From a virus, in IMG/VR virus record IMGVR_UViG_3300045988_052641, positions 1 through 64,000 of that record: a DNA stretch of 64,000 bases; one strand, written 5' to 3'. The notes below the pieces were generated by a model. It had not been told where the DNA came from. It ran no database searches and saw only the letters and a program-made list of their open reading frames with translations. This document shows, piece by piece, positions 16,385 through 33,096 of this stretch. Numbering within the stretch: the first letter of the stretch is position 1; every line of letters begins with the position of its first letter. A program made the position numbers and the translations under genes.

Positions 16385-16387
16385 AAA

Positions 16388-18612: not shown

Positions 18613-18641
18613 AAGCTGTAATTATTAATTCATTACTAATG

Positions 18642-18714: not shown

Positions 18715-18722
18715 ATACCTTA

Positions 18723-19010: not shown

Positions 19011-19062
19011 AATTCTAATAATTAGGTTAATAATGATTTTCGCAAACTCTTATTAGCCAGCG

Positions 19063-19150: not shown

Positions 19151-19237
19151 AATCCACAGAAGACTTATTTATGCTATATCAATCGCTTATGATTACCTCA
19201 ATGCTGTAAGTCTTCTTAGAAATTCACTGTAAAAGGA

Positions 19238-21199
19238 TTACTTTACAGGAGGAAAATTGTCACCTTTAGCTGGTGATTCTTCTGGCTTCTTGCCAGTGAT
19301 TATTTGCTTAAGCGAATCTGCAATAGGCAAATTACGGGCAATTTCCAAACTCGGAGCAAGATTCTTAGCCATATTAGCCATGAACTGTCCAGCAGTGTTG
19401 GAATCACCATACACAGTAACATTACCAAGCTGGATATGTTCAAATACCTTAGCGTTGGCTTCAGCAACTTCCTTCCACCTGTCGGTCATTGCATATTGAA
19501 CGATTGCTTCAGGATGCATACCTGATTTAATCATATGTTCAACTGCAAGAGCCGGAGCCATTTCCATTGCCTGTTTCTGTTCAGCTTCTGCCATTAAAGA
19601 TGCTTTCTTACCTTCAGCTTCGGCAAGAAGTTTCTTCTTAGTACCTTCAGCTTCTGCTTCCAGTTGCATCTTAGTAGCATTTGCTTTAGCTTCTGCTGCT
19701 TTCAAGATTTTAGCTGCTTCCGCTTCTGCTTCAAGAATGGCTACACTCTTAACAGCTTCTGCTTCAATCTTAGCTTTCTCTTTGGCCTTCTCGGCAGGTA
19801 TAATCACTTCGGCTTTAAGCTTAGCTTCTTCAGCTTTAGCTTTAGCTTCATTAACTTCTACCTGACGTTCCTGCTCTGTTTTAGCAACTGCCATTTGAGC
19901 TTCAACTTTGGAAGTACCAGCTACTCTTTCAGCTTCAGCTTTAGCTTTCTCTGCTTCTCCCTTAGCTTTGGAAACTTCAATAGTAGCTTTCTGTTCAGCT
20001 ACTCCTGCTGCTTTCTCTGCTTCAGCTGCCTTTTGACGGGCTTCTGATTCATACTGTGCAGTTTTAGCTTCTTTCTCCTGCTGTGCTTTAACAGTTTCAG
20101 CTTCTTGGTTTTGTGCTGCTACTGCCATACGAACTTCCTTCTCTGCTTCTGCTTCTGCCTTAGCGGCTTCAGCTTTGGCAGTAAATTCTGCTTCTTTAGC
20201 AGTTGCATAAGCTTGCTGCTCTGCAATCTTGGCAGTTCTCAATGCTTCTTGCTCGGCAACTTTGGAAGCTTCTTCAGTTTGGGCTGTAGCCACACCAATT
20301 TCACGTTCCTTTCTTTGCTCTGCAACAGCAATTTGTTGTTCCTTATGCTGCTCGGCCAATTGAGTTTCTTTCTCTTTAGTGGTCTTAGCAATAGCAACTT
20401 CTTTCTCCCTGTTAGTTTCAGCCACTATAGTTTCTTGCTCCTTAGTAGCTGCTGCAATTGCAATCTCCTTCTCTCTCGTAGTTTGAGCTATCTGGATTGC
20501 TCCTTTCTTCTCTTCTTCTGCGATATCAGCTTGTGATTGCGCTCTTGCTTTAGTCTCTTCTTTCTTACCAAGATTATCAATATATTGAGCAGCATCTTGA
20601 ATGTCACTGATATTGATATTCATCAGATAAAGACCAAGTTTGTTCAATTCCGTATTGATATTGTCTCTAGCTTGAGCTAGGAACTTGTCTCTGTCAGAGT
20701 TAAGCTCTTCAATAGTCATCGAAGCAATAACAAGCCTCATCTGACCATAAACAATATCTGAAATCAAACTTTCTTTAACGTCATCATCAGCACCTAGTAA
20801 GCGATTAGCAGCATTCTGCATAATCAGCGGTTCTTGGCTAATAGCAACAGTTACAGTGGTAGGGATAGTTACACGAATATTTTGAGCTGACAAAGCATTC
20901 TTCAATACAAGATTCAATTGAATCGGTTGCATTGACATTACTTCATAACCCTGTATAATCGGCCATACAAAAGCTGCACCACCATGATAAACCTTGGCAG
21001 TTTTAATTTCAACTTCTCTGTCAACCAGATTACCTTTAGCGTCGCGTTCGCTAACTTTCTCTTTGTGAGAGCCTGTTTTACCATAAACTACCAACAATTC
21101 GTCAGATTTACATTTACGGTAGCGGGATAGAATCCCAATGATAGTGATGATTGCAACTAGTACAACTACACCAACGATAATTAATGATGTCATTTCCAT
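19238..21199 (-). CDS. SPFH/flotillin-like (band 7, YqiK-like) membrane protein
   Basis: N-terminal TM helix, SPFH-like region, then ~350 aa Ala/Glu/Lys-rich coiled coil with AEAEA repeats as in bacterial flotillins. Confidence 0.7.
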   Translation of the reverse strand: MEMTSLIIVGVVVLVAIITIIGILSRYRKCKSDELLVVYGKTGSHKEKVSERDAKGNLVDREVEIKTAKVYHGGAAFVWPIIQGYEVMSMQPIQLNLVLKNALSAQNIRVTIPTTVTVAISQEPLIMQNAANRLLGADDDVKESLISDIVYGQMRLVIASMTIEELNSDRDKFLAQARDNINTELNKLGLYLMNINISDIQDAAQYIDNLGKKEETKARAQSQADIAEEEKKGAIQIAQTTREKEIAIAAATKEQETIVAETNREKEVAIAKTTKEKETQLAEQHKEQQIAVAEQRKEREIGVATAQTEEASKVAEQEALRTAKIAEQQAYATAKEAEFTAKAEAAKAEAEAEKEVRMAVAAQNQEAETVKAQQEKEAKTAQYESEARQKAAEAEKAAGVAEQKATIEVSKAKGEAEKAKAEAERVAGTSKVEAQMAVAKTEQERQVEVNEAKAKAEEAKLKAEVIIPAEKAKEKAKIEAEAVKSVAILEAEAEAAKILKAAEAKANATKMQLEAEAEGTKKKLLAEAEGKKASLMAEAEQKQAMEMAPALAVEHMIKSGMHPEAIVQYAMTDRWKEVAEANAKVFEHIQLGNVTVYGDSNTAGQFMANMAKNLAPSLEIARNLPIADSLKQIITGKKPEESPAKGDNFPPVK

Positions 21200-21212
21200 C
21201 TTGAAATTGGTA

Positions 21213-21734
21213 TTAATCTATGTATAATTTATTGTCTTCGTATTTACGAATCGTTACTGGCTCATTGACAGGATATATCTTCTTATTAAGAGATACAACT
21301 TCTACTTCTCTCAATGCTCCACTTATGTTCACGGATGCCAAATGGCGCCCTTCACCTAAATGTACATAGATAGTAGCAGTTCTGCCAACTAAGTTAGTCT
21401 TCGGTTCGTCTTTAGGAAGGTTCTGCAATTTCATACAGAACTTATATAAATGATACAGCATAAATACAAATACAAGACCTATAAAGAATCCTATTAACCA
21501 ATCAATCCAGGTTACTTCATAACCTAATAATTGCTTAATAGATGTCCATCCTCCGAATCCCATGAAGAAATGGATAAATCCTTTAAAGGATACAACATCA
21601 CTGACATCAAAATCAGCATCACCATCAAAGTCTACGTCGACATCGAACTCCCCAGCAACCCATGATATTATGAATTGTAGGATAAATATACCATAGGCGA
21701 TGCCTCCTAAGATATAATACAAGTTATTGTCCAT
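21213..21734 (-). CDS. NfeD-like (YqiJ-like) membrane protein
   Basis: N-terminal TM segments, acidic DVDVDFDGDADFDVSD stretch, C-terminal beta domain; sits immediately upstream of the flotillin gene as in yqiJK operons. Confidence 0.6.
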   Translation of the reverse strand: MDNNLYYILGGIAYGIFILQFIISWVAGEFDVDVDFDGDADFDVSDVVSFKGFIHFFMGFGGWTSIKQLLGYEVTWIDWLIGFFIGLVFVFMLYHLYKFCMKLQNLPKDEPKTNLVGRTATIYVHLGEGRHLASVNISGALREVEVVSLNKKIYPVNEPVTIRKYEDNKLYID

Positions 21735-21763
21735 CTTACTAATAATTATTTAATCTATTAAAG

Positions 21764-21838
21764 TGGGGCGAAATGGAGTCGAACCATTATCTCTGGATTT
21801 TCAGTCCAGCGCGAACTGACCACCTGCGCTACCGCCCC
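21764..21838 (-). tRNA. tRNA-Phe(GAA)
   Basis: acceptor GGGGCGG/TCGCCCC, anticodon arm CTGGA-CTGAAAA-TCCAG, T-arm AATGGTTCGACTCCATT. Confidence 0.8.
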
Positions 21839-22137
21839 ATACTGCCTACACATACGTCTTCACTGGATTTTATGCTTTATTACGCCAGTTGCTTTGGACA
21901 GTCTAAATCCTTCGGTGCTGTACAGCTATACATATATTAACGAGGCCTCAACATTAATTAAGCTGCCATCGCACCTACTCCCATTACTTCGTCACGCAAC
22001 GTACCCTACATTCCACTTTAGGATTTTCACCTAACCACATCCTCGGCATTCCGTTTCAAGATAAAATATAACTCTGCTGAATAAGTCAAACCAAACAGGA
22101 AGATTTATGATACGTTTATACCTAAACAGCAGAATTG

Positions 22138-22211
22138 GGTGACATACGAGACTTGAACTCGTAACCCTTAGAACCACAACCTAATGCTCTGCCAATTGAG
22201 CTAATGCCACC
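22138..22211 (-). tRNA. tRNA-His(GTG) with encoded G-1
   Basis: extra 5' G pairing with C73, anticodon arm TTAGG-TTGTGGT-TCTAA, T-arm ACGAGTTCAAGTCTCGT. Confidence 0.85.
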
Positions 22212-22219
22212 ATATTGAG

Positions 22220-22798
22220 TTATTGCAACTCTAATCCTTCTTTTAGTGCCCTAGTATATGCCATTCTAGCAAAGAATAGTTCAGCCACAGCCATAACTAC
22301 TGGCTCTGCTAACTCTTCGGCTTCTTCAGCTCTTTCTTCTTTGGGCTTAGATTCTACATATTCTAGTAATTCCAACACAGCTCTATTAGCTTCGACCAGG
22401 CGACTATAAGCAATGCGAACTTGTTTATAGTTCTTATATCTTTCTCGATATGGTCTTATTGCATTCCATGAATATGAAGCAGCTACTATTATTGATATGG
22501 CACATAGTACCATAAATCCGAAGGATTCTCCTTTAGACCATGCTGAATAGATTTGACACAATACAGCACCCAAACATAGATTCTGTCCTATAAAGAGGGA
22601 CAATAAGAACCAATAAGCTGAAAAGGCTTTCTTTGCTTCATCAAGTAATGATGCTGACTCCTTTAGCTTCTCTTGTTCAGCTTTTAATGAGTCAATTGAC
22701 ACTTCCATAGCTTCTCCTTCGTCTGAATCTTTAAGGCGTTCATATTCCTCTTCACTAATCTTGGTTATTTTCAAATCTTCTAATTCTTCTCGATTCAT
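22220..22798 (-). CDS. hypothetical membrane protein (2 TM)
   Basis: 192 aa ORF with central hydrophobic helices flanked by acidic coiled-coil segments. Confidence 0.5.
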   Translation of the reverse strand: MNREELEDLKITKISEEEYERLKDSDEGEAMEVSIDSLKAEQEKLKESASLLDEAKKAFSAYWFLLSLFIGQNLCLGAVLCQIYSAWSKGESFGFMVLCAISIIVAASYSWNAIRPYRERYKNYKQVRIAYSRLVEANRAVLELLEYVESKPKEERAEEAEELAEPVVMAVAELFFARMAYTRALKEGLELQ

Positions 22799-22964
22799 TA
22801 CCTTTCAATTTAAGTTCAATATATTTTACTTTTGTCTCCTATATGCACGACTTCTATTAGCATTTCCAGTAACTCCATATAGCCTACCGATTACTTCATA
22901 GGACAAATTCTGGACTAGTATTAAATTCTCTAATTCTTCCTTGTTATATTTGCTCATAATATTC

Positions 22965-23012
22965 GCACAATTTTAACTGCACAATTTTAACTGCACAATT
23001 TTAACTGCACAA
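22965..23012. repeat. 14-bp tandem repeat GCACAATTTTAACT x ~3.4
   Basis: direct reading of sequence; intergenic between membrane protein gene and tRNA-Ala. Confidence 0.9.
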
Positions 23013-23074
23013 ATATACGAACATTCAAGTTCGAATCCAATAAAATTCAACACTTTCTAAATTATTAGACCTAG

Positions 23075-23145
23075 TGGAGGCACCGAGAATCGAACTCGGG
23101 TCTTTAGCGTGCAAGGCTAACATAATTGCCACTATACTATGCCCC
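23075..23145 (-). tRNA. tRNA-Ala(TGC)-like with imperfect acceptor stem
   Basis: anticodon arm TTAGC-CTTGCAC-GCTAA and T-arm CCGAGTTCGATTCTCGG are perfect, G3-U70 present, but acceptor GGGGCAT versus TGCCTCC pairs only with a bulge. Confidence 0.55.
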
Positions 23146-23333
23146 TATATTTAGCCACACTATCGTAGGGCTATCAGCTCCCAACGTCCGACTGATTACG
23201 GAAGGTTACCTACCGGTCTGATAACCTATAAAATGCACAATTACTTAGTCATGCCCCAACTGTTCTTGTCAGTCTCCGACTCCAACCCATAGCATGTTAT
23301 AGAACTCTACATGCATACCCTCCTCATTGTGCA

Positions 23334-23636
23334 CTATTTTAAACCTATCATTTCAGCAATTTCTTCAAATGAATAATTCAGAAATAGTCTATCCATATCT
23401 GCATCAGATTTAACCCATTTAGGTCTAGGATATATAAGAGTAGGAGAATGTCCTCTCTCATGTAATCCATACACTACTTCCTTCTTACCTTTAATAAGAC
23501 GAAGGTCAATATGCTCTGACATAGAAGAATAAAATCCTATATTAGAATCTTCTACATATGTAGAACCCTTCTTAGACATTACCTTGCGATAAGGTTTATA
23601 CCCTTTACTAATTAAATACTCTATGAACCCAATCAT
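23334..23636 (-). CDS. hypothetical protein
   Basis: 100 aa ORF. Confidence 0.45.
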   Translation of the reverse strand: MIGFIEYLISKGYKPYRKVMSKKGSTYVEDSNIGFYSSMSEHIDLRLIKGKKEVVYGLHERGHSPTLIYPRPKWVKSDADMDRLFLNYSFEEIAEMIGLK

Positions 23637-23651
23637 GTTAACTATTATTAG

Positions 23652-23724
<73 letters not shown>

Positions 23725-23794
23725 ATCATCAGAAGGCAAATTGAACTACATGACACAGTAAAAGTGCTGATGCCTTCTTATATTACCCATTCAG

Positions 23795-24145
23795 TTATTC
23801 TAGATTAGGTAATTTTCTTGTTTCTTTCTTAAACTGTCTCCTATTATAGCGTTCTCCTTTACATATAGGACAACTACAAGGAGTACTGGTTGTTTTGTAG
23901 GCAAACGTATATTTAGAATTATATAATTCTGTCCAATGTCTACCTCTTGCCGTTTTATCTGGATTATACCAGTAGGCAGCGTGGAGTTTAATCCTAGTAA
24001 TATACTTCTGGTCTTTCTTTAGGTTCCTCCACCTTTTGTTTCTTTGGATTAGTGAATCCTTCAGTCTCTCCGTTCTTAGTTCTTCCATCGTCTCTATCAT
24101 TAGTGTTAATAATGTCTTGAGACGGGTTGTAGCCGGTTCCAACAA
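23795..24145 (-). CDS. hypothetical Cys-containing small protein (CSCPIC zinc-ribbon-like)
   Basis: 116 aa ORF. Confidence 0.4.
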   Translation of the reverse strand: MLEPATTRLKTLLTLMIETMEELRTERLKDSLIQRNKRWRNLKKDQKYITRIKLHAAYWYNPDKTARGRHWTELYNSKYTFAYKTTSTPCSCPICKGERYNRRQFKKETRKLPNLE

Positions 24146-24194
24146 ACTTCTTCATATCCAATCCTGTTAAATTAATTCCTTTCATACGATAATT

Positions 24195-24542
24195 TTACAA
24201 TCTGTTAAATACTGCATGTTCCTTTAACCACTCTTGATAGAGCTTATCATCATAGTTACCTGAATACTCCCAATGAAATCTACTACATTCTATAGTCTTT
24301 AGTAAGAACTTCATCACAGACCTTGTATTAGCCTTCTTTGATATAGATGAAATGTAAAACTTCTCTTTATCAAAATCATAGTATCCTCGTAATACCACTC
24401 GGCGAGAATTTTGTCTATTTAAGTAAATTCTTGCCAACAACTTGGAGTTATTGTCTACATATCGAGTAGGTATGAATTTATAAGCCATCTGATTCAGCCA
24501 GCAATAAAGTAATACCAATACAATAGGCATTATTGACTGCAT
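24195..24542 (-). CDS. hypothetical protein
   Basis: 115 aa ORF. Confidence 0.45.
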   Translation of the reverse strand: MQSIMPIVLVLLYCWLNQMAYKFIPTRYVDNNSKLLARIYLNRQNSRRVVLRGYYDFDKEKFYISSISKKANTRSVMKFLLKTIECSRFHWEYSGNYDDKLYQEWLKEHAVFNRL

Positions 24543-24801
24543 TCAACCTTTTCTTGAGTTCCTTCTTAGCCTTTCTGGACAACTTTGGGTACTCTGCATA
24601 TAAATCCTGTTCAGCGGCTCTACTTGCTTCGCTTAATTGCTCAAGTAAAGCATTAACATCTTCTTTAGTTTTGTAATCCTTAAGAAGGACTCTAACTAAT
24701 GTGGGACGTTTTACCATTTCTCGCATTCCAGATTCGTACACTCTACAAATTTGGTTTCTACTTAACGTAGACACTCTCCTTAATTTCACTTTAAACTTCA
24801 T
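24478..24801 (-). CDS. hypothetical protein
   Basis: 107 aa ORF. Confidence 0.45.
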   Translation of the reverse strand: MKFKVKLRRVSTLSRNQICRVYESGMREMVKRPTLVRVLLKDYKTKEDVNALLEQLSEASRAAEQDLYAEYPKLSRKAKKELKKRLNAVNNAYCIGITLLLAESDGL

Positions 24802-24820
24802 AGTACACTCAAATTAGTTG

Positions 24821-24906
24821 AGGAAGCAGAGGGATTCGAACCCCCGGACCCCGAAGGACCTCCGCATTTCAAGTGCGGTGCAATCGACCAACTCTGCCAT
24901 ACTTCC
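24821..24906 (-). tRNA. tRNA-Ser(TGA), class II
   Basis: acceptor GGAAGTA/TGCTTCC, anticodon arm CCGCA-CTTGAAA-TGCGG, long variable arm, T-arm GGGGGTTCGAATCCCTC. Confidence 0.75.
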
Positions 24907-24916
24907 AATTAATAAG

Positions 24917-24991
24917 CACGCCCTGCACGACTCGAACATGCAACACACCCAGTTTTGGAGACAGGGGCTCTACCGATTGAGCTAAGGACGC
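24917..24991 (-). tRNA. tRNA-Trp(CCA)
   Basis: acceptor GCGTCCT/AGGGCGT, anticodon loop CTCCAAA, T-arm GCATGTTCGAGTCGTGC. Confidence 0.7.
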
Positions 24992-25105
24992 ATCAATTTT
25001 AGATTGTGGAATCTTTAAAGATGTAATACAGTACTACTAGCACTATAGCTCCCACAATGTAAGCACCAAAACTATGCATAATCTTATAATTTAATGTTAA
25101 TAATG

Positions 25106-25180
25106 CGGGAAGGGCGAGACTCAAACTCGCTATCTTCGGCTTAACAGGCCGCAGCTGTATACCACTTAAGCTTCCTTCCC
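25106..25180 (-). tRNA. tRNA-Asn(GTT)
   Basis: acceptor GGGAAGG/CCTTCCC, anticodon loop CTGTTAA, T-arm GCGAGTTTGAGTCTCGC. Confidence 0.8.
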
Positions 25181-25535
25181 AAATGTTTAATTGACCTATC
25201 CCGATTGCATCGGAGTTAATCCCTATGGTAAGGAACTACTCCTGTTGGATACCACGTGTAGCTATCAGCTGACACTTTGAAATACCAACGAACTGCTTTC
25301 TTAATTAACTTAAATAGTCTCATAATACATCAGTTTTAGTCAATAAATAAATAATCTAGCTCATCGCTAAACAGCAACCAAAGCAAAATACTAGCAACAA
25401 TAATACTCCAGTGAATGGATTAAATTGATGTTGAGCTATACAAGCAACTGTTCCTATAACAGAACCAATTACTAACAATACTCCAATAATCTTACTCATA
25501 AATGTATCTGATTTTAAATTAATAATCTAAATAAA

Positions 25536-25561
25536 CCACTCTATCTTCACAGACTGAGTGG
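25536..25561. repeat. conserved stem-loop element, copy a (ACCACTC-TATCTTCACAGACT-GAGTGGT)
   Basis: member of 4-copy hairpin family with conserved 14-nt loop and covarying stems. Confidence 0.6.
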
Positions 25562-25604
25562 TCAAACTCGTTCTTTGACATCATGTACAATCTTAGTACA
25601 TATG

Positions 25605-25676
25605 TGATTCCGCAGGGACTTGAACCCTGTTCTATAGATTAAAAGTCTATAGCATATCCATACATGCTCCGGAATC
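25605..25676 (-). tRNA. tRNA-Lys(TTT)
   Basis: acceptor GATTCCG/CGGAATC, anticodon arm ATAGA-CTTTTAA-TCTAT, T-arm CAGGGTTCAAGTCCCTG. Confidence 0.85.
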
Positions 25677-25759
25677 ATCCGCAGAAGGCGCGTTATCAAA
25701 AACATGTAAACTGTACAATGATTAGTGCTGTACGCCTTCTTATGTTTCACTAAATCGAG

Positions 25760-25831
25760 AGTGGGCTGACGGAATCGAACCGTCCTAACCGCTTTTGCAG
25801 AGCGGCCCCTAAACCTCTCGGGTAAGCCCAC
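25760..25831 (-). tRNA. tRNA-Cys(GCA)
   Basis: acceptor GTGGGCT/AGCCCAC, anticodon arm CCGCT-CTGCAAA-AGCGG, T-arm GACGGTTCGATTCCGTC. Confidence 0.8.
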
Positions 25832-25962
25832 ATATCAATACGACTTATGGGCTTAACTATGAAACAGGTTAATCAAATCATAAATTAAAAGTTGTTGGGT
25901 TGATTTGATGATTGTTTAGTGAAACTATATATTATTGTGTTAATTATGGTTCTTATTAAAAC

Positions 25963-25988
25963 TACTCTATTCTCACGAACTGAGTAGT
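25963..25988. repeat. conserved stem-loop element, copy b (CTACTC-TATTCTCACGAACT-GAGTAG)
   Basis: compensatory C>T / G>A stem changes relative to copy a. Confidence 0.6.
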
Positions 25989-26044
25989 TGTCCATATTTG
26001 CTATTATGGGATTATCAGCATCCTCTCTTGGATGCCACGGGGAG

Positions 26045-26117
26045 TATGGGTAGCCAGACTCGAACTGGCGACAACTAGGTCCCAAACCTAGCATTCTACC
26101 TACTGAATTACACCCAT
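26045..26117 (-). tRNA. tRNA-Pro(TGG)
   Basis: anticodon arm CTAGG-TTTGGGA-CCTAG, D-arm ATTCAGTAGGTAGAAT, T-arm GCCAGTTCGAGTCTGGC. Confidence 0.75.
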
Positions 26118-26219
26118 AACTACAGAAGTCTCTTAGTTTAATTAAAATCATAAAATATGAAACACTTTCTTTCGTGCTGTAAGACTTCTTATTCAAAGCT
26201 ATTGAAAATTGTTGTATTG

Positions 26220-26286
26220 TGGGTGTACTTGAACCAAGGACTTACACGTTATCAGCGTGTTACTCTACCACCTGAGTTATACACCC
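26220..26286 (-). tRNA. tRNA-Ile(GAT)-like with truncated T-arm (possible pseudogene, ~67 nt)
   Basis: canonical acceptor GGGTGTA/TACACCC, D-arm ACTCAGGTGGTAGAGT and anticodon arm ACACG-CTGATAA-CGTGT, but 3' strand of T-stem is absent. Confidence 0.45.
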
Positions 26287-26386
26287 ATCATCAGAAGACA
26301 ATAGATTCATTTACTTATGCCAACATACAGGAAATTGCTGTTTGTCTTCTTAGCATTCTGAAAATGCAAATGTACAATGATTGTAG

Positions 26387-26453
26387 TTGCGGTCGGACGA
26401 TTCGAACGTCGTCTCTTATGAGCCCAGTAAGCTACCATTGCTCCACCACCGCA
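26387..26453 (-). tRNA. initiator-like tRNA(CAT) with unpaired anticodon stem (possible pseudogene, ~67 nt)
   Basis: GGTAGCTTACTGGGCTCATAA resembles bacterial tRNA-fMet anticodon region, T-arm GACGTTCGAATCGTC present, but 3' anticodon-stem strand does not pair and variable loop is missing. Confidence 0.4.
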
Positions 26454-26455
26454 AG

Positions 26456-26527
26456 TGCCCCATGTTGGACTCGAACCAACGCCATACAAGTTTAGAATTT
26501 GCTCTTCTACCACTGAAGTAATGGGGC
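26456..26527 (-). tRNA. suppressor-type tRNA, anticodon CTA (reads UAG amber)
   Basis: perfect acceptor GCCCCAT/ATGGGGC, D-arm CTTCAGTGGTAGAAG, anticodon arm GCAAA-TTCTAAA-CTTGT (U33, A37), T-arm GTTGGTTCGAGTCCAAC. Confidence 0.6.
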
Positions 26528-26653
26528 GACAGAGGGTTTTACGAGATTACCCACAACTCATCAACTATTCGATAATTTGATTCCACTGTTCAAGTGTAAG
26601 TTCCTTGACTACTATGCCATTTAGTTCAAATGGAGTATATTGGTTTCGCATAA

Positions 26654-26950
26654 TCATTTCCCTTTAATTTGTTTACACATGTTAATAAACTCATCATCCG
26701 ATTCACATATAATCGGATTCGTTTCCTTGAGATACATCTCCAGATAGGCTTCTTTAGACAAATCGTCCACGTCATCCGGATACACACCATGTACATCATA
26801 TGACATATGAGAACCCCAGCAACTAAGCCAATCAGCATCCTCAAATGTAGTACATATACACACACTTAACCCAGCATCCTCTAGTTTCTTACGAAGTTCT
26901 GGAGTATTCTTCTTAATAAGACAGTGTTCACTCATGGATTTAATACACAT
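26654..26950 (-). CDS. hypothetical protein
   Basis: 98 aa ORF. Confidence 0.45.
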   Translation of the reverse strand: MCIKSMSEHCLIKKNTPELRKKLEDAGLSVCICTTFEDADWLSCWGSHMSYDVHGVYPDDVDDLSKEAYLEMYLKETNPIICESDDEFINMCKQIKGK

Positions 26951-27156
26951 AAACCACCTTTCTCGGAATCTCTAAGCACGTACTTAGTACCTGGAATACC
27001 AGGTCCTGATACCTTATAAATGGTTAGTTCGTTAATAAATTCATACTGCACTCTGTTGATTTTATAATCTCCATTAGTAGCAGCAGACTCATTGATTGAT
27101 GCTTTACTTGTGGTTGCAAATAATGCCAAGAAGGTAAATACTCCACATAATCTCAT
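26932..27156 (-). CDS. small secreted protein
   Basis: 74 aa, N-terminal signal-peptide-like MRLCGVFTFLALFATTSKA. Confidence 0.45.
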   Translation of the reverse strand: MRLCGVFTFLALFATTSKASINESAATNGDYKINRVQYEFINELTIYKVSGPGIPGTKYVLRDSEKGGLCVLNP

Positions 27157-27171
27157 CTATTATTAATAATG

Positions 27172-27243
27172 AGCGGGATAACAGAATTGAACTGTCATCT
27201 TCAGCTTGGAAGGCTGTTATAATAACCATTATACGAATCCCGC
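27172..27243 (-). tRNA. tRNA-Gly(TCC)
   Basis: acceptor GCGGGAT/ATCCCGC, anticodon loop CTTCCAA, T-arm GACAGTTCAATTCTGTT. Confidence 0.75.
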
Positions 27244-27249
27244 AGTTTA

Positions 27250-27277
27250 CTTCTACTATTCTCTCGAACCATAGAAG
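27250..27277. repeat. conserved stem-loop element, copy c (CTTCTA-cTATTCTCTCGAACCa-TAGAAG)
   Basis: same loop consensus as copies a,b,d. Confidence 0.6.
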
Positions 27278-27330
27278 GGTTTGTCGAGTTTGACCTCAAC
27301 AGATATTGTATTTAATTATCGCAGTGTGAG

Positions 27331-27414
27331 TGGGCCCGGGAGGACTCGAACCTCCAGTCCAATTAAGGAGTAGATTTACAGTCTACGCGGCTACCAATTA
27401 CCGGTTACGTGCCC
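27331..27414 (-). tRNA. tRNA-Tyr(GTA), class II
   Basis: anticodon arm GTAGA-CTGTAAA-TCTAC, long variable arm, T-arm GGAGGTTCGAGTCCTCC; one A-G mismatch in acceptor. Confidence 0.8.
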
Positions 27415-27525
27415 GAATCACACAATCCATATTAACTGTGAATTGTGAGTGCAAAGGTAATGAATCTTCCCCACATGTAAAAGTTAATATGTATTAAATA
27501 CGATAGAAGTTTGCTCGGTATTAAA

Positions 27526-27561
27526 CTAAGCTCACATATTCTCTCGAACCGATGAGCTTAG
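27526..27561. repeat. conserved stem-loop element, copy d (CTAAGCTCA-caTATTCTCTCGAACCga-TGAGCTTAG)
   Basis: 9-bp perfect stem, same loop core TATTCTCTCGAACC as copy c. Confidence 0.6.
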
Positions 27562-27664
27562 TAGTTATTCAACAATTGCAGATACTTTAACTCGTAATAA
27601 TGACTATGAGTCGAGATAGAAATGACACTGCATATGTTGAAAGAATCATATTAATAAAATGGTG

Positions 27665-27738
27665 TAGAGATAACCAGATTCGAACTGATGTTCTTCTAAA
27701 GATTGACTTTAGCTGTTCTACCACTGAACTATATCTCT
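27665..27738 (-). tRNA. atypical class-I tRNA with anticodon CAA (Leu codon UUG) and G32/C38 loop
   Basis: perfect acceptor AGAGATA/TATCTCT, D-arm GTTCAGTGGTAGAAC, anticodon arm CTAAA-GTCAATC-TTTAG, T-arm ATCAGTTCGAATCTGGT; lacks the long variable arm expected for bacterial tRNA-Leu. Confidence 0.5.
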
Positions 27739-27901
27739 ATCCAGTCCCTATGGAATCATCCAATAAATTCCCACCTAGTATCACTAGATATGCACAAAGA
27801 TTACTATACCAAATATGCGCTCTTCTCCATGCATAATGAAATCTATCTTCTATCCAATCAGAACATTAATTCAACTATTAAATAAACGGTGCGCGAAATA
27901 C

Positions 27902-29596
27902 TTAGGCCTTCACAGGCTTCTTCTGCACGCTTGCATTCTTCTTGACAACATCCTTCTCTAGAATCATCATATTAAGCAACTCTTGATTCATAGCATGCTT
28001 AAAAATGTCTCTGGTGGTTTTAGGCACCTGGAACCTCTTCTCTCCAGTAATAAATGAGGATGTTGAATTATTAAGTCCATTTACTAAGAAGCAATTTGAC
28101 ACTCCTGGAACCAAAGCTACATTAGGTCTTCCTTTATATGCTAAAGGAACTCTCCAAATAATAACTTTGAACGCCCTTACAAATTCCTTACTGAAATTTG
28201 CTTTAAGCAATCTCTGCTTAAATTCCACGAATGCTTGGTTGTTCAACTTGGTAAAATATGTATGGTTAGTAATTACCACACAACCTCTAGGGAACTCTCC
28301 TTCATCTACACCATAATCTTCTTTCATCTTACACAGCATTTCTGCTATATTAACAATAGAAGGATTCTGGCATAATGCTTCTTCTTTGTCAGATTTCCAT
28401 TTCTCAATGACATTCTGACCTTTGAACTTACGTAGAACCATGTTATCTTCTAACACGGCATAGGAGTTTTTGAATATTGTAGGAAGTAGTTCAGAGTGAT
28501 ATAAAGCATATACTTTACCCAAACTGTAAGCAGATGTTTCGCTATTCTCTATCTCACCATTAGCAGAATGGCTTATATCTCTTACTACCAACAACGGAGC
28601 TACTCTATTGCGTTTAGCATTATCAACGAATACGTTGAAACTTGCATTAATAGAAGTTTCCATAAATTCTGGAATCTCTTCGGCAATTTTATCCAGTCCA
28701 TATGGTTTGAATAAAGTATGTAGAAATCCGCTATTAGAGGGCTTCTTACGGTTCTTCAACCAGTTCTGATACTTCTCTTTAAGACCTTGATGTTTGAGGA
28801 ATTTAGAGCCTACTAGCTGTGCCAGCGCCTTTCCAGTAACAGTGTCAAAATCAATTTCCAAGAATTTCTTTTGACTGATTAACTGCTGCCATTGGGCTGC
28901 TTTCCCGCTATTCTTCATCTTCCTATATTTACGATAGGTGGAATAGTCTCCTTCGTCCTTAGGTTTACCATAAAGGCCTTCCGCCAAGAATTTGGCTACT
29001 GTGTTACGTGCTTTTGCCTCATCTGTCTTACATGCAACACTGGAACGAACACGGGGAAGATACTTCTTTACTAAATCACATGTCTGACCATTAGCAAGAC
29101 CTGCAAATATGACTTTCTTGAAGAAGTCCCAATCCAATCTGTGCTTAAAGCCATGGAGTTGAACATCTAAAGCCATCATAGTAATGAAATCTTTCCAGCA
29201 TCCAGCTGCTGCAAAATAAGCAATGTTGGCATGGAATGTGGGTTTGTGATAGATTGCCAACCACAGCATCCTCATTATACCTTCATTTTTCAAACCTTCT
29301 CCTTGCTGTGTATCAAGCTGTATAACTCCTTCCGGGGTAGTTATTCTACATTTACGAGTTATCATCCTCGTATATGCAGTAAACTTGGTACATAGTAATG
29401 GATTAGCTTTCCATAAAGGATACATATCTTTAGTCACTTGCACGTAGGTACGTGGCTGAAGACATTTCTTAAGATTAACAAACTGGTCTATGAATAACTG
29501 ATTATTATCCACAAACTTAGGTTTATTCTCATCCCGCCTTTGACGTGCGGCATTAGGGTAAGGCCTCCTTGGCCTTTGTGCTCCTTTCATTTCCAT
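27902..29596 (-). CDS. large hypothetical protein (564 aa, basic N-terminus)
   Basis: long ORF, RPRRPYPNAARQRRDENKPK N-terminal basic tract. Confidence 0.55.
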   Translation of the reverse strand: MEMKGAQRPRRPYPNAARQRRDENKPKFVDNNQLFIDQFVNLKKCLQPRTYVQVTKDMYPLWKANPLLCTKFTAYTRMITRKCRITTPEGVIQLDTQQGEGLKNEGIMRMLWLAIYHKPTFHANIAYFAAAGCWKDFITMMALDVQLHGFKHRLDWDFFKKVIFAGLANGQTCDLVKKYLPRVRSSVACKTDEAKARNTVAKFLAEGLYGKPKDEGDYSTYRKYRKMKNSGKAAQWQQLISQKKFLEIDFDTVTGKALAQLVGSKFLKHQGLKEKYQNWLKNRKKPSNSGFLHTLFKPYGLDKIAEEIPEFMETSINASFNVFVDNAKRNRVAPLLVVRDISHSANGEIENSETSAYSLGKVYALYHSELLPTIFKNSYAVLEDNMVLRKFKGQNVIEKWKSDKEEALCQNPSIVNIAEMLCKMKEDYGVDEGEFPRGCVVITNHTYFTKLNNQAFVEFKQRLLKANFSKEFVRAFKVIIWRVPLAYKGRPNVALVPGVSNCFLVNGLNNSTSSFITGEKRFQVPKTTRDIFKHAMNQELLNMMILEKDVVKKNASVQKKPVKA

Positions 29597-29898
29597 CTCT
29601 TGTTAAATTTATTGTTATGAGAGTCTTTCTTTATTCTAAACAATAAACAAGCGGCATTACGGCAATCGGACATACGTTAACCCGCTCGCCACTTACAGAC
29701 CGTAATGCACACTTGACCAGGCAGGAAAGAGGTTTGCTTGGTGACCTATCTGCATGCTGATTATATAATACAGACCGTGTAGATTCTCTCTTATACACAA
29801 TATCTATAGTAGATTTGCACTACTGTTTCCTGATGCTTAATCAGGTGAACTCCTACTGTTCGAATAGATACAGGTTTCAACTCTTTGATATAGCCTTT

Positions 29899-29920
29899 AA
29901 GTCATAGACATACTCCGGAG
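29899..29920. promoter_or_regulatory. 22-bp perfect palindrome AGACATACTCCGGAGTATGTCT
   Basis: read directly; lies in a 380-nt non-coding gap downstream of ORF 29977..30672. Confidence 0.5.
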
Positions 29921-29976
29921 TATGTCTACTGGTTCTTCAGACCAAGTTTTGCTACCACCATTCGTCAATAGTGGAT

Positions 29977-30672
29977 TTACGGTATTAGATAGTCCACACG
30001 AAGGTCTACCGTCTCTTCGTTTGCTTCTAACACCACAGTCGTCGAAAGAATGTCAGGATTGTCAGCTGTAGTTATCATACTCACAATATCATGTGGGGAT
30101 TCTAAGTACAAATAACCTCTACCGTCCCAAGCTGGAATATATCCACCTCGTAGAATGTTTCGAGACGGAATAGACTTGTAATAATAGTGTGCTGGCCGGT
30201 AGTGAGCGAATGATACGTTAATAGCTGATTGGTGTGTGCCTATGGTAAAACCACCCAGGACTGTTGCCAGTCTCGTCACCTTACTAACGTATTTTGAATC
30301 GCCTACTACATCTAGTCTTATGTTCAAGCCTGGATAGTAGAATTTAGCAACTCTCCTGCTTATATCCTTCAACGTTTGAAGAGATTGAAATTCAGCAACA
30401 TCAACATAGTCTTTCTCCGATTCAGAACTACCGAAGATACAATTGATTGGTATTGGCTGATTAGCTTCAATACATTCTTCCAAAATAGTGATTGCTTCGG
30501 ACGGAATAGCTTCATTACCAAGTCTGATTCTCTTAGTCCCATATAAGATATGAGCTATAATCTGACTAAGTGGCAATGATAATTTCTCCTTAGCAAAGTT
30601 GCTTTCCAAATCATATAGATATTGGCAAATGTGTGCACTGAATGGCGTGTTCCCTTGTACTGTAAACTTCAT
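29977..30672 (-). CDS. hypothetical protein
   Basis: 231 aa ORF. Confidence 0.5.
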   Translation of the reverse strand: MKFTVQGNTPFSAHICQYLYDLESNFAKEKLSLPLSQIIAHILYGTKRIRLGNEAIPSEAITILEECIEANQPIPINCIFGSSESEKDYVDVAEFQSLQTLKDISRRVAKFYYPGLNIRLDVVGDSKYVSKVTRLATVLGGFTIGTHQSAINVSFAHYRPAHYYYKSIPSRNILRGGYIPAWDGRGYLYLESPHDIVSMITTADNPDILSTTVVLEANEETVDLRVDYLIP

Positions 30673-31166
30673 ACTATCTGTTCAACTGTTATTAATTTAG
30701 TGATTCTGTAACCTCTTGATTTCAGGAATTTGATTGCTTCCATTTCAGCTTGTGTAATAGGAATCAGATGTTTGTCTTCTTCCGCTTCTGTAACAGCTTC
30801 CATTTCAGCTTGTGGCTTAGGTTTGGGAGGTGCTACGTAAGTGCCAGCTTTAATAGCCATTCTCTTAGCATATGCATCTCTCTGTATCTTAGCCATTTCT
30901 TTCCTACTGATAGTTATCAATTCAATGACTCTAGTCTTATACAAAGGGCCATGTTCTTTCCACATAAATCCTTTAGTATAGATAGCACCGTCAGGTTCAA
31001 TAACTCCTTGCTTACGCAAAACAGCCATGAAGTTCTCTGGCCTTGGGAAGCCATTCTTCTTTAAATCCTTGACTACATCTGTAATCTTAAAAGGCCCAGG
31101 ATTCATTGCCTTTACCGTGTTAAAAATCCGAACGATGTCATCGTCGGATATTGACCTCTTTCCCAT
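30669..31166 (-). CDS. hypothetical protein
   Basis: 165 aa ORF, start/stop overlap with neighbour. Confidence 0.5.
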   Translation of the reverse strand: MGKRSISDDDIVRIFNTVKAMNPGPFKITDVVKDLKKNGFPRPENFMAVLRKQGVIEPDGAIYTKGFMWKEHGPLYKTRVIELITISRKEMAKIQRDAYAKRMAIKAGTYVAPPKPKPQAEMEAVTEAEEDKHLIPITQAEMEAIKFLKSRGYRITKLITVEQIV

Positions 31167-31192
31167 AATTTCAATAACTTTTAGTGAAACAA

Positions 31193-31474
31193 TTACTCTT
31201 TATATATTCTAATTCGAGATTTGCGTGTCCGTATACGTATTTGACTAATCTCGGATAGAATCCAATCACGTCTACATTGATGAAACCATTTAATAATAGC
31301 GTCGTCAAATACAGATGTATTATCACGGTAGAATATACCACTGTAATAAGTATCAAGCTTTGGTTCGGATATGTTATGAGGATTGTCAGTAACTATGTAT
31401 TGATAATCCTCACCTCTTATTAATTTCAGCTTCTTTGACTTCTTACGAAGTTTCTTTAATAACCTTGCTTTCAT
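31193..31474 (-). CDS. hypothetical basic protein
   Basis: 93 aa ORF. Confidence 0.4.
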   Translation of the reverse strand: MKARLLKKLRKKSKKLKLIRGEDYQYIVTDNPHNISEPKLDTYYSGIFYRDNTSVFDDAIIKWFHQCRRDWILSEISQIRIRTRKSRIRIYKE

Positions 31475-31824
31475 TTTAATAGTTCCAATTCAGTTACGTC
31501 CTTATTGTACCATATTCCAATCCAGAAGTTGTCTGCATAACTCCTATGTGCCATAATAGCATAGTTAACTTCCAAAGCATCATTATACAGTATATAATCA
31601 CACTTCTTATTAGGAGATTGTAGCATCTCTTTAAGTACATGATGCCTATTGACAACCTTAATATTGTTCATGATAGAAAGTGGTAACGAAATCGCTGCTC
31701 CAACTGTTAATATTGAGAATACAATCTCAACTGCCACTGCAACTTCTCTTAGGTCTTTAGACCCTATTCGTGAAACACATACACAAATAAGTAAAACAAT
31801 CACTGCAATAATAAATAATCCCAT
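31471..31824 (-). CDS. hypothetical membrane protein
   Basis: 117 aa ORF, N-terminal TM helix. Confidence 0.45.
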   Translation of the reverse strand: MGLFIIAVIVLLICVCVSRIGSKDLREVAVAVEIVFSILTVGAAISLPLSIMNNIKVVNRHHVLKEMLQSPNKKCDYILYNDALEVNYAIMAHRSYADNFWIGIWYNKDVTELELLK

Positions 31825-31852
31825 AAAATTGATATTTAAACGTTAATAATAG

Positions 31853-32453
31853 TGGACCTAGAGGGATTCGAACCCTCGTCCAGACAACTCTCATTAATAA
31901 GATTACGTGTGTCTCTATTTTATTACATCAGCTGTTGAGTTCAGCATGTAGGTAGTTTTACTAAGAAGCTGAGTGTTAATTCACCAATTACGTCTCCTCG
32001 TAAGGCTACGACTTAGTTGTTCACAAACTACCAAACTGGGCTTGACCGAACGGTCGCTCCACCACTCCATTTACGTTGGAGAACGGATGATATTTCAGAG
32101 ATTCGTCACACCTCATGGACCACATCTTCCATCTGCTTTATGACATTAGGAGATTTCAGCTTTACTAACCTTTGGCTTTCAAGTTAATGCATCTAAGCTT
32201 CACTGTAACCTTGCAGGTACTATGACTCTTCCCCGCAGGCCTCGTTATAGCACTTAGATACAAACCTCTTCTGTTTCTAGGTCTCTCCGTTAACCCGACT
32301 TAGAGCTAAATTAATAGATAAGCCAGCAGCTTAGGCTGCCATTCTGTTGTAGTCGATTTCAGCAACTATTGTTTGTATCATTATTAAAGAGTTGGTACGA
32401 ACTCTACACGTCTTACTAACTTGTAATCGCCTGTCAAAGCCAAATCTAGGCCC
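31853..32453 (-). ncRNA. ssrA: tmRNA (ssrA-like), ~600 nt, tag peptide AEIDYNRMAA
   Basis: 5' GGGCCTAGATTTGGCTTTGACAGG matches tmRNA 5' consensus (GGGGCUGAUUCUGGAUUCGACGGG); acceptor GGGCCTA/TAGGTCC with G3-U70; resume context AATAGTT-GCT at nt 91 followed by GCT GAA ATC GAC TAC AAC AGA ATG GCA GCC TAA; 3' end GGACGAGGGTTCGAATCCCTC-TAGGTCC-A mirrors E. coli GGACGGGGGUUCAAAUCCCCC-CGGCUCC-A. Confidence 0.7.
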
Positions 32454-32590
32454 ATAGAACGGCACGATTATACTCTCGTGCCAGGAGTCTCATTAAAAAT
32501 GATGAATATAGCAGCCAGTATCCTCCTGTGCCACATTGAGTGGCGTACCCATTATGGACTTGGCAGCTTACGAGTTATTTTTTGTTCCAT

Positions 32591-32944
32591 TTAAAATGGT
32601 AAGTTTCCTTCATGTTTCATCCAACTATAAACTACAATTTCATAATCTGGGAAATCGTTAGCAAGTTTAATACAACTGTCAAACGATAACTCTGTTATGC
32701 ATATAAGAGGGTAATCATTGTCAAGCCATTCTCTAATTACATCCTTATCAGGAATATGCTCATCCAATGACCATTTAAGCTCACGTTCAAGTCTTTCACG
32801 TATCGTATTCAATTTAATATGGTCATGCGTTCCATATATAACATTTAATATGTGATACAATAAATGGCTATTGAACTTATCAACATCGCTAATAAGAATA
32901 TGCCTCTTGGCATTCCTTAAAGAATTAACTGCATTCTGATTCAT
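32591..32944 (-). CDS. hypothetical protein
   Basis: 117 aa ORF. Confidence 0.45.
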   Translation of the reverse strand: MNQNAVNSLRNAKRHILISDVDKFNSHLLYHILNVIYGTHDHIKLNTIRERLERELKWSLDEHIPDKDVIREWLDNDYPLICITELSFDSCIKLANDFPDYEIVVYSWMKHEGNLPF

Positions 32945-33025
32945 ACACTTATTAATTAAAAGCCCAAGTGTGTTTCACAACATGACTGGGGCAAGCCTAA
33001 ACTATACAAAACTTTAAAATGATTG

Positions 33026-33096
33026 GGAGAGGATGGGAGATTCGAACTCCCTCCGCCAGTTCGCAACTAACCTTCTACCATTAAACTAATCCTCTC
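33026..33096 (-). tRNA. tRNA, anticodon uncertain (best fold gives GCG, Arg)
   Basis: perfect acceptor GAGAGGA/TCCTCTC, D-loop AATGGTAGA, T-arm GGGAGTTCGAATCTCCC; anticodon stem needs two G-U pairs. Confidence 0.55.

What the first reader, a model, noticed from the sequence alone, without database searches (positions are those of the whole stretch)
26456..26527. Amber-suppressor-type tRNA (anticodon CTA) in a phage that itself uses TAG as a stop
This is a well-formed tRNA with perfect acceptor, D-arm and T-arm. Its anticodon loop is UUCUAAA, giving anticodon CUA, complementary to UAG.

Within this window TAG, TGA and TAA are all used as stops; the gene 81-449 ends in TAG, for example. The large late ORFs are not fragmented by in-frame TAG.

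So any recoding would have to be partial, temporally restricted, or affect genes outside this window. The suppressor could also act on host messages.
Basis: partly seen in the sequence, partly recalled or inferred. Interest (0 to 1): 0.66.

Follow-up and report, generated by a model that had tools for sequence, protein, structure and literature searches.

The report
Conserved amber-suppressor tRNA in standard-code phage
A large human-gut phage that reads its genes with the normal genetic code carries a well-preserved tRNA that reads the UAG stop codon; it belongs to a phage group in which some branches have fully turned UAG into glutamine, so it looks like an early or partial stage of a genetic-code change.

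Summary
A canonical 72-nt tRNA with anticodon CUA lies at 26456-26527 on the minus strand (ARAGORN; Rfam 62.7 bits).

It is under selection. Four diverged alleles sit at the same place in the tRNA array of related gut phages. Ten of 22 pairs show compensatory changes, including the tertiary 19-56 pair. CUA, A37 and A38 never change, and pair 31-39 is unpaired in all four alleles.

The phage uses the standard code. About 169 kb of window plus close relatives is densely coding under code 11, and about 8% of genes end in TAG. There is no release-factor or GlnRS gene.

Terminase relatives at 56-61% identity are fully TAG-to-Gln recoded and carry a different suppressor tRNA. One relative is TGA-recoded.

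In-frame TAGs in this lineage are rare and cluster in one hypervariable module next to a large cell-wall hydrolase gene. In the window, a 164-aa ORF ends in TAG and continues in frame into a 180-aa ORF. One relative has CAG there and no second start codon. Other relatives have TAG inside the glucosaminidase protein.

Best reading: a working, possibly attenuated suppressor that supports sparse, incipient recoding. This is a new member of a known kind. The amino acid and the actual read-through are untested.

The parts
26455..26527 (-). tRNA with anticodon CUA (reads UAG). Discriminator A73 is at 26456. No CCA is encoded. Pair 31-39 is an A.C mismatch and 27-43 is G.U.
   Evidence: ARAGORN. Rfam RF00005 at 62.7 bits. 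Sequence. Identical in 18 IMG/VR contigs. Four alleles with covariation.
26380..26454 (-). Decayed tRNA-Met-like gene (CAU) immediately 3' of the CUA tRNA. It has a 5-nt deletion of the 3' strand of the anticodon stem compared with the intact copy in relatives.
   Evidence: Sequence, compared with the intact tRNA-Met of L002, L003 and L005. Called by neither ARAGORN nor Rfam in the window.
26220..26286 (-). tRNA-Ile(GAU)-like gene, the next one 3' in the array. In this genome it lacks part of the T arm that relatives have.
   Evidence: Rfam 48.4 bits. Not called by ARAGORN. Sequence comparison.
946..33095 (-). tRNA array: 27 or more tRNA genes interspersed with small ORFs, which holds the CUA tRNA between tRNA-Gly(UCC) and tRNA-Ile/Pro. 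The array also holds a tmRNA and a RAGATH-34 RNA.
   Evidence: Synteny in relatives.
46207..46701 (-). 164-aa ORF that ends in TAG (46209-46207). It is the candidate read-through site. It also holds a 9-G homopolymer at 46574-46582.
45652..46194 (-). 180-aa ORF whose ATG lies 4 codons after that TAG in the same frame. Read-through would give a 349-aa fusion.
   Evidence: Relative L095 has CAG at the TAG position and ACG instead of this ATG, in one 208-aa ORF.
42047..45652 (-). Context immediately downstream: an 80-aa ORF (45410-45652) and a 1120-aa protein with a glucosaminidase domain. This is the module in which relatives carry in-frame TAG.
   Evidence: Pfam PF01832. PHROG endolysin hits. 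In-frame TAG in homologues of L229 and L173, TGG in L174. The window copy lacks that C-terminal module.

Best explanation
The gene encodes a translation-competent elongator tRNA that decodes UAG.

Shown:
- It has kept its cloverleaf, its L-shape contact and its CUA anticodon through extensive sequence divergence.
- It lies in a standard-code phage lineage whose deeper relatives include fully TAG-to-Gln recoded phages.

Inferred:
- It is transcribed with the phage tRNA array.
- A host enzyme adds the CCA end, which the gene does not encode.
- A host aminoacyl-tRNA synthetase charges it. Gln is my best guess and Lys is the main alternative.
- During infection it competes with release factor 1 at UAG, so that a fraction of ribosomes read through.

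In this lineage the benefit would be sparse, incipient recoding. The tRNA lets the phage express the few ORFs that carry an in-frame TAG. These sit in the fast-evolving module next to the cell-wall hydrolase gene. In the window this is the 164-aa ORF, TAG, then the 180-aa ORF, giving a 349-aa long form beside the short forms. In relatives the TAG lies inside the glucosaminidase protein.

Ordinary TAG terminators are tolerated because they are few (about 8% of genes, none in the 78-kb late block).

The always-unpaired 31-39 pair may tune suppression strength. This is speculation.
For: The tRNA is real and canonical.

Selection on the tRNA:
- Allele 1 is identical in 19 genomes, while neighbouring tRNAs have been swapped or have diverged.
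- Alleles 2, 3 and 4 are syntenic. Ten of 22 pairs have changes on both sides, including the tertiary G19-C56 to A19-U56. CUA, A37 and A38 are invariant.
- In the window both flanking tRNA genes are damaged but this one is intact.

Standard code:
- ORF coverage is close to 1 under code 11 over window plus MT835470 (160 kb) and over 9 kb more in L198.
- Stops are TAA 108, TGA 44 and TAG 14.

Clade context:
- Terminase relatives L254, L270, L273-L276 and L282 are TAG-recoded.
- Their in-frame TAGs align to Gln in this phage's orthologues in 105 of 203 cases.

Sparse in-frame TAG:
- There is only one TAG-joined ORF pair in 160 kb, and it is in the window.
- A natural variant has CAG plus loss of the second start codon.
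- TAG at 'NQH[IT]WN*SAPF' is followed by 168 and 357 open homologous codons in L229 and L173. L174 has TGG at that position.
- L229 comes from the same sample as a contig that carries allele 2.

There is no phage RF1/RF2 or GlnRS homologue, so host enzymes must be used.

The model matches the route proposed in 10.1101/2021.08.26.457843.
Against: No expression, charging or read-through data exist.

The 164/180 junction is sequence-invariant in about 96 contigs, so its TAG cannot be shown to be selected. One in-frame neighbour among 14 TAG-ending genes is close to what chance would give.

That gene pair is absent from the allele-2 lineages that still keep the tRNA. It therefore cannot be the general reason the tRNA is conserved.

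The other in-frame TAGs align to Trp codons (TGG) in homologues. They could be plain nonsense variants followed by re-initiation.

Some family members lack the tRNA: L079, L087, L285 and L286.

TAG stops are not followed by nearby back-up stops.

About 5-15 kb of the genome was not seen.
Confidence: 0.5

Rival explanations
1. The suppressor acts on other genomes rather than on the phage's own genes. It might cause read-through of host TAG-terminated genes as part of host takeover. Or it might switch on, at the wrong time, the TAG-containing late and lysis genes of co-infecting TAG-recoded phages that use the same host.
For: Heavily TAG-recoded phages (L051-L061) share several tail-fibre-like modules with this phage, which suggests overlapping hosts. 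Conservation of the tRNA does not track any single phage gene with in-frame TAG. The idea that phages may sense each other's suppressor tRNAs is raised in 10.1101/2021.08.26.457843.
Against: There is no direct evidence. The phage's own 14 TAG-terminated genes would be hit equally. The host is unknown: the lack of Shine-Dalgarno motifs only points to Bacteroidota.
Confidence: 0.2
2. The tRNA is an evolutionary leftover or passenger of the tRNA array, for example a relic of a recoded ancestor. It is not now used and is kept only by linkage.
For: Distribution is patchy: the tRNA is absent from L079, L087, L285 and L286. The genome needs no recoding.
Against: Four alleles differ at up to about a third of positions, yet every stem pair and the 19-56 tertiary pair are kept through compensatory changes, and the anticodon loop is fixed. 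The neighbouring tRNA genes decay or are replaced while this one stays intact. The suppressor of the recoded relative L274 is not orthologous.
Confidence: 0.1
3. The RNA has a role outside translation. It could be a decoy or substitute for a host tRNA attacked by an anticodon nuclease or another defence system, or a primer or regulatory RNA. The CUA anticodon would then be incidental.
For: Phage tRNA arrays are thought in part to replace host tRNAs cleaved by defence nucleases; this is general knowledge and was not tested here. The unpaired 31-39 pair gives an unusual anticodon arm.
Against: The features kept are those needed on the ribosome: U33 in three of four alleles, A36-A37-A38, and a full L-shape. 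The anticodon is invariant while the stem bases beside it vary. No sense-codon tRNA has a CUA anticodon that it could stand in for.
Confidence: 0.07
4. The phage is really recoded (TAG is a sense codon genome-wide or in all late genes), and the standard-code appearance is an artefact of the window.
For: Relatives in the same terminase clade are recoded in exactly the structural region.
Against: Under code 11 the structural block 49.6-128 kb of the composite genome is fully open, with 47 genes and no in-frame TAG. Treating TAG as sense adds no more ORF coverage than treating TGA as sense.
Confidence: 0.03

Closest known systems
Phage-encoded amber suppressor tRNAs (Sup-CTA) of TAG-to-Gln (code 15) recoded gut phages, such as crAss-like and Lak phages and the clades in Borges et al. 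(10.1101/2021.08.26.457843; PMC9523058)
   Same: A phage-borne tRNA with anticodon CUA, in a low-GC human-gut phage. The same terminase clade contains fully TAG-to-Gln recoded members. The rare in-frame TAGs sit in the module next to the cell-wall hydrolase gene, the class of genes reported to be recoded first.
   Different: This genome is standard code and ends 8% of its genes in TAG. Its tRNA is not orthologous to the suppressor of the recoded relative L274, which has a paired 31-39. There is no RF2 or aaRS 'code-change module'.
Suppressor tRNAs reported in standard-code phages with no known target: Stenotrophomonas phage Summit (PMC9022506), Klebsiella phage phiKp24 Sup-TTA (PMC8386662), and the standard-code Agate phage with a TGA suppressor (10.1101/2021.08.26.457843)
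   Same: A suppressor tRNA in a phage that does not need it for general decoding. Its function is open.
   Different: Here the tRNA can be followed through four diverged alleles with covariation, so selection is demonstrable. Candidate target ORFs with in-frame TAG exist.
tRNAs with 4-bp anticodon stems that promote stop-codon read-through: Blastocrithidia-type tRNA-Trp(CCA), E. coli tRNA-Thr2 with G27-A43 (PMC13092985)
   Same: The anticodon stem is effectively shortened in a tRNA linked to stop-codon decoding.
   Different: In those cases the top pair, 27-43, is open and the anticodon is near-cognate. Here the loop-proximal pair 31-39 is open, 27-43 is G.U or G-C, and the anticodon is fully cognate to UAG. 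The functional effect is unknown.
tRNA-Pyl (ARAGORN's label)
   Same: Anticodon CUA.
   Different: This tRNA has canonical G18G19, a T-loop, a 5-nt variable loop and an ordinary D arm. No pyl genes were seen among the proteins scanned. It is not a pyrrolysine tRNA.

Membership tests
Canonical elongator tRNA (Rfam RF00005) | Cloverleaf with 7/4/5/5-bp stems and the conserved U8, A14, G18G19, U33, purine 37, T54-Psi55-C56 and A58 | tested here: met
   Full-length model match at 62.7 bits. ARAGORN. Read from the sequence. Exceptions: 31-39 is unpaired, and allele 2 has C33.
Canonical elongator tRNA (Rfam RF00005) | Structure maintained by compensatory substitutions among homologues | tested here: met
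   Ten of 22 pairs have changes on both sides; 0 of 500 shuffles reach the observed score.
Amber suppressor tRNA (Sup-CTA) | Anticodon CUA in a 7-nt loop with U33 and a purine at 37 | tested here: met
   The loop is UUCUAAA. CUA is invariant in four alleles.
Amber suppressor tRNA (Sup-CTA) | Aminoacylated, and inserts an amino acid at UAG in vivo | not testable with these tools
   No expression or proteome data. Indirect hints only: CAG at the homologous site in L095 and TGG in L174.
Code-15 (TAG-to-Gln) recoded phage | Many conserved genes interrupted by in-frame TAG, and ORF coverage restored only when TAG is read as sense | tested here: not met
   Window and composite genome: coverage is already about 0.85-1.0 under code 11, with a single TAG-joined pair. 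Relatives L254, L273-L276 and L282 do meet the criterion.
Code-15 (TAG-to-Gln) recoded phage | Code-change helpers in some members (RF2, aaRS) | tested here: not met
   tblastn and phmmer with E. coli RF1 and GlnRS found nothing in the 160-kb composite.
tRNA-Pyl | Short D loop without G18G19, 3-nt variable loop, 6-bp anticodon stem, pylS/pylBCD nearby | tested here: not met
   G18G19 are present, the variable loop is 5 nt, and the anticodon stem is 4-5 bp. Twenty neighbouring proteins have no Pfam hit.
Read-through tRNAs with a 4-bp anticodon stem (27-43 unpinned) | Top pair 27-43 unpaired | tested here: not met
   27-43 is G.U in three alleles and G-C in one. The unpaired position is 31-39.

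The most novel reading that the evidence does not exclude
The tRNA is a deliberately weakened amber suppressor, with an obligatorily unpaired 31-39 pair. Standard-code phage lineages have kept it for a long time to set a fixed ratio of short to read-through-extended proteins from a handful of TAG-interrupted genes beside the cell-wall hydrolase gene. That would be a stable 'one-codon, few-genes' dual-meaning state, not just a brief step on the way to full recoding.
Probability: 0.2. Interest if true: 0.75.

Novelty: new member of a known kind. Interest (0 to 1): 0.5.

Why it matters
How a genetic code starts to change is still argued mostly from end states. This phage family offers fully TAG-to-Gln recoded lineages, a TGA-recoded lineage, standard-code lineages without a suppressor, and standard-code lineages that have kept one suppressor tRNA through much divergence and carry only a few in-frame TAGs. 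That makes the proposed route (rare stop codon, then suppressor tRNA, then first recoded late or lysis genes) testable on real intermediates. The always-unpaired 31-39 pair is also a concrete variable for measuring how suppressor strength is tuned.

Tried and rejected
- **Genome-wide or late-gene recoding: rejected**.
- **tRNA-Pyl: rejected** on structure.
- **Recent paralogue of one of the phage's own tRNAs:** none is closer than 52 of 73 positions.
- **Isotype from relatives: inconclusive.**
  - BLAST of the tRNA against GenBank phages gave only weak generic tRNA matches.
  - The same acceptor stem occurs in viral Thr, Met and Arg tRNAs and in bacterial Lys(CUU/UUU), Thr(CGU) and Arg tRNAs.
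  - No copy of the tRNA itself was found in 185,579 bacterial genomes.
- **Back-up stops after TAG: not found.** Extensions after TAG are, if anything, longer: median 18.5 against 7-8 codons, p about 0.045.
- **TAG avoidance in the late block:** 0 of 47 genes end in TAG. This cannot be separated from a general TAA preference, because TGA is also depleted.
- **Phage release factor or GlnRS:** none.
- **Pfam on 20 proteins around the tRNA:** no hits.
- **Selection on the 164/180 TAG junction:** I looked for variants in IMG/VR and metagenomes. All roughly 96 copies are identical, so there is no test.
- **The 164/180 fusion as the general reason for the tRNA: rejected,** because allele-2 lineages lack those genes.
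- **Orthology with the suppressor of a recoded relative: rejected**.
- **PurZ idea for the short adenylosuccinate synthetase:** the best PDB matches are all named adenylosuccinate synthetase, with none labelled PurZ. Unresolved.

Full report
**1. The observation**

ARAGORN finds 27 tRNA genes in the window. All but one are on the minus strand, between 946 and 33095. One lies at 26455-26527(-) and has anticodon CTA. Rfam's tRNA model matches 26456-26527(-) end to end at 62.7 bits against a gathering score of 29.

Read as RNA, the acceptor, D and T stems are perfect. The loop is UUCUAAA, with U33, CUA, A37 and A38. All the usual invariant bases are present. No CCA is encoded.

ARAGORN's 'Pyl' label is only its name for CTA. 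The D loop, the 5-nt variable loop and the T loop are ordinary.

The gene is on the minus strand. The anticodon stem has G27.U43 and an A31.C39 mismatch, the only unpaired 31-39 among the 27 tRNAs here.

**2. Is it maintained?**

A 23-nt probe on the anticodon arm found 18 IMG/VR contigs of 72-270 kb. Each carries a 73-nt copy identical to the window's, at the same place in the array. In the same genomes other tRNAs have been replaced or have diverged. For example, there are three Pro, five Ile and five Asn variants down to about 50-75% identity.

To avoid the bias of that probe I searched with the neighbouring tRNA-Gly instead. Six further contigs carry a second allele with 23 of 73 differences. 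Two contigs have nothing at that spot.

A looser probe found a third allele. Contigs that encode homologues of the adjacent 564-aa protein gave a fourth allele in a distant lineage, L287, where that protein is only 44% identical. They also gave two sister lineages without the tRNA.

On the four-allele alignment:
- 10 of 22 pairs have changes on both sides, including the tertiary G19-C56 to A19-U56.
- Every pair is formed in every allele except 31-39, which is unpaired in all four (A.C, A.C, C.C, C.C).
- CUA, A37 and A38 never change.
- 95.5% of cells are paired, against 26-49% when the partner is slid by 1-3 columns.
- 0 of 500 shuffles reach the observed covariation score.

In the window the two adjacent tRNA genes, a Met-like one and an Ile(GAU) one, carry small deletions, while the CUA tRNA is intact.

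This is a tRNA under purifying selection for ribosome-type structure and for this anticodon. It is not a one-off anticodon mutation.

**3. Which code does the phage use?**

The window's ORF structure is explained by code 11. Reading TAG as sense adds no more ORF coverage than reading TGA as sense.

GenBank record MT835470.1 comes from human faeces and is 97-98% identical to window 48.5-64 kb. It runs 96 kb beyond the right end of the window and is almost completely open under code 11.

In the resulting 160-kb composite, 166 ORFs end in TAA 108, TGA 44 and TAG 14. The 78-kb plus-strand block with terminase and portal has TAA 41, TGA 6 and TAG 0 (terminase and portal). A further 9 kb to the left of the window, seen in relative L198, is also standard code.

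Metagenome contigs of this phage are 171-186 kb, so a few kb remain unseen.

There is no homologue of RF1/RF2 or GlnRS. Twenty proteins around the tRNA have no Pfam match. Genes lack Shine-Dalgarno motifs (9% against a 15% background), which points to a Bacteroidota-type host. This is an inference.

**4. The clade**

The large terminase (54628-56388; PHROG 6681) has hundreds of relatives on contigs of about 150-230 kb. I examined about 20 kb around the terminase in 80 IMG/VR relatives.
- Close relatives, and one group at 61-62% identity, are standard code.
- L254, L270, L273-L276 and L282 (56-61% identity, GC 30-33%) rise from 0.43-0.48 to 0.82-0.94 ORF coverage only when TAG is read as sense.
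- L284 behaves the same way for TGA.

These loci share 6-12 syntenic orthologues with the window. Their in-frame TAGs align to Gln in this phage in 105 of 203 cases, against a 4% Gln background.

So the window phage is a standard-code member of a clade in which TAG-to-Gln recoding has evolved.

The recoded relative L274 has its own CUA tRNA near the terminase. That tRNA is unrelated in sequence and has a normal A31-U39 pair.

This fits the route proposed by Borges et al.: a rare stop codon in low-GC phages, then a suppressor tRNA, then the first recoded structural and lysis genes. Those authors also saw a suppressor in a standard-code relative (10.1101/2021.08.26.457843). Suppressor tRNAs without known targets have been reported in other standard-code phages (PMC9022506, abstract; PMC8386662).

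**5. Is any TAG read through?**

Screening the 160-kb composite for ORFs joined only by a TAG gives one credible case. The 164-aa ORF 46207-46701(-) ends in TAG. Four codons later, in the same frame, comes the ATG of the 180-aa ORF 45652-46194(-).

Just downstream lie an 80-aa ORF and a 1120-aa protein with a glucosaminidase domain.

In Logan contig L095 the homologous site is CAG (Gln) and the second ATG is ACG. Together these give one continuous ORF. L096 is similar.

However, all 25 IMG/VR and 71 metagenome copies of the junction are identical, so selection on the TAG cannot be tested. The gene pair is also missing from the allele-2 lineages.

Other in-frame TAGs occur in the same module of relatives.
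- In the glucosaminidase protein the site 'NQH[IT]WN*SAPF' is followed by 168 open codons in L229 and by 357 in L173. L229 is from the same sample as a contig that carries allele 2. The two sequences are 81% identical at the nucleotide level.
- L174 has TGG at that position.
- L182 has TAG where homologues have Trp.
- The window's own 1120-aa protein lacks that C-terminal module.

TAG stops are not backed up by nearby stops. They are never followed by A (0 of 14). Both signals are weak.

**6. Interpretation**

What is shown:
- a selected, canonical, UAG-cognate tRNA;
- a standard-code genome;
- recoded cousins in the same clade;
- rare in-frame TAGs concentrated beside the cell-wall hydrolase gene.

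What is inferred:
- The tRNA is charged by a host synthetase.
- It gives partial read-through.
- This permits, or buffers, the few TAG-interrupted ORFs.

The amino acid is open.
- Gln is suggested by the clade's code and by the CAG in L095.
- Lys is suggested by U35, A73 and an acceptor stem shared with bacterial tRNA-Lys(CUU).
- Two of the sites align to Trp.

The conserved open 31-39 pair recalls the 4-bp anticodon stems that alter stop-codon reading. Those are open at 27-43, not at 31-39 (PMC13092985). Its effect here is unknown.

Rival readings are action on the host or on co-infecting code-15 phages, which share tail-fibre-like modules with this phage; a relic; or a non-translational role. 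They are less well supported but not excluded.

**7. Verdict**

In kind it is already known: a phage Sup-CTA tRNA in a standard-code relative of recoded phages. I therefore file it as a new member of a known kind.

Its value is as a well-resolved intermediate, with four covarying alleles, presence/absence polymorphism, candidate target sites and an unusual conserved anticodon stem. Interest 0.5.

Noticed in passing
window 46574-46582 (in ORF 46207-46701, minus strand) and 38877-38885 (in ORF 38839-39486, plus strand): There are two 9-base G homopolymers where 0.2 runs of 8 or more are expected. The first varies from 6 to 12 G among relatives, which puts the 164-aa ORF in or out of frame in about half of them. 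This looks like phase variation, unless it is assembly noise.
   Followed up: partly
window 42047-48784 (minus strand) and proteins P0001-P0027: This module is hypervariable. Public assemblies hold many deletion and fusion variants that join the 211-aa, 164-aa and 180-aa ORFs at different short homologies. The C-terminal modules of the glucosaminidase protein are swapped between lineages.
   Followed up: partly
window 53702-54705: An insertion of about 1 kb relative to MT835470.1 carries a 281-aa endonuclease ORF (PHROG 4645). It splits the large terminase gene, which is one 758-aa protein in relatives, into 53115-53705 and 54628-56388. It is likely a mobile intron or a homing-endonuclease insertion. 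No Rfam intron hit was found.
   Followed up: partly
window 31850-32453 (minus strand): A phage-encoded tmRNA (Rfam 84 bits) of about 600 nt carries an insertion of about 240 nt. ARAGORN does not call it, and I did not work out the tag peptide.
   Followed up: no
window 29867-29974 (minus strand) and 27902-29596 (minus strand): A RAGATH-34 RNA (120.8 bits) lies just upstream of a conserved 564-aa protein (DUF7788; PHROG 'RNA-binding protein'). In relatives that protein is followed by a DUF7873 gene. This may be an RNA-protein pair.
   Followed up: no
window 27664-27738 (minus strand); same slot in L092, L286, L287: The 'tRNA-Leu(CAA)' is a 75-nt type-I tRNA without a long variable arm and with U at position 37. 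A compensatory change in one relative supports its anticodon stem. In other lineages the tRNA in this slot has a 6-nt loop, or ARAGORN reads a 4-base anticodon (ttag, taaa).
   Followed up: partly
window 14378-15445 (minus strand): This is a short (355-aa) adenylosuccinate synthetase homologue that ends in TAG. The best PDB matches are all named adenylosuccinate synthetase, and none is labelled PurZ. Its role is unclear.
   Followed up: partly
L051-L061 (IMG/VR contigs of 69-101 kb, GC 31-34%): These are unrelated, heavily TAG-recoded phages with 3-6 in-frame TAGs per gene. They share the N-terminal domain of the 164-aa protein and several tail-fibre-like modules with this phage, which suggests shared hosts and module exchange across genetic codes.
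   Followed up: partly
L095 1190-1210, compared with window 46192-46212: The junction variant in L095 differs from the common sequence by six substitutions in about 21 nt, all A-to-G or T-to-C, while the flanks are nearly identical. This looks like a localised burst of transitions.
   Followed up: no
window 19047-19123 (plus strand) against 19062-19150 (minus strand): ARAGORN calls a tRNA-Arg(TCG) on the plus strand that overlaps tRNA-Ser(GCT) on the minus strand. The same pair appears in relatives. It is probably an antisense artefact.
   Followed up: no
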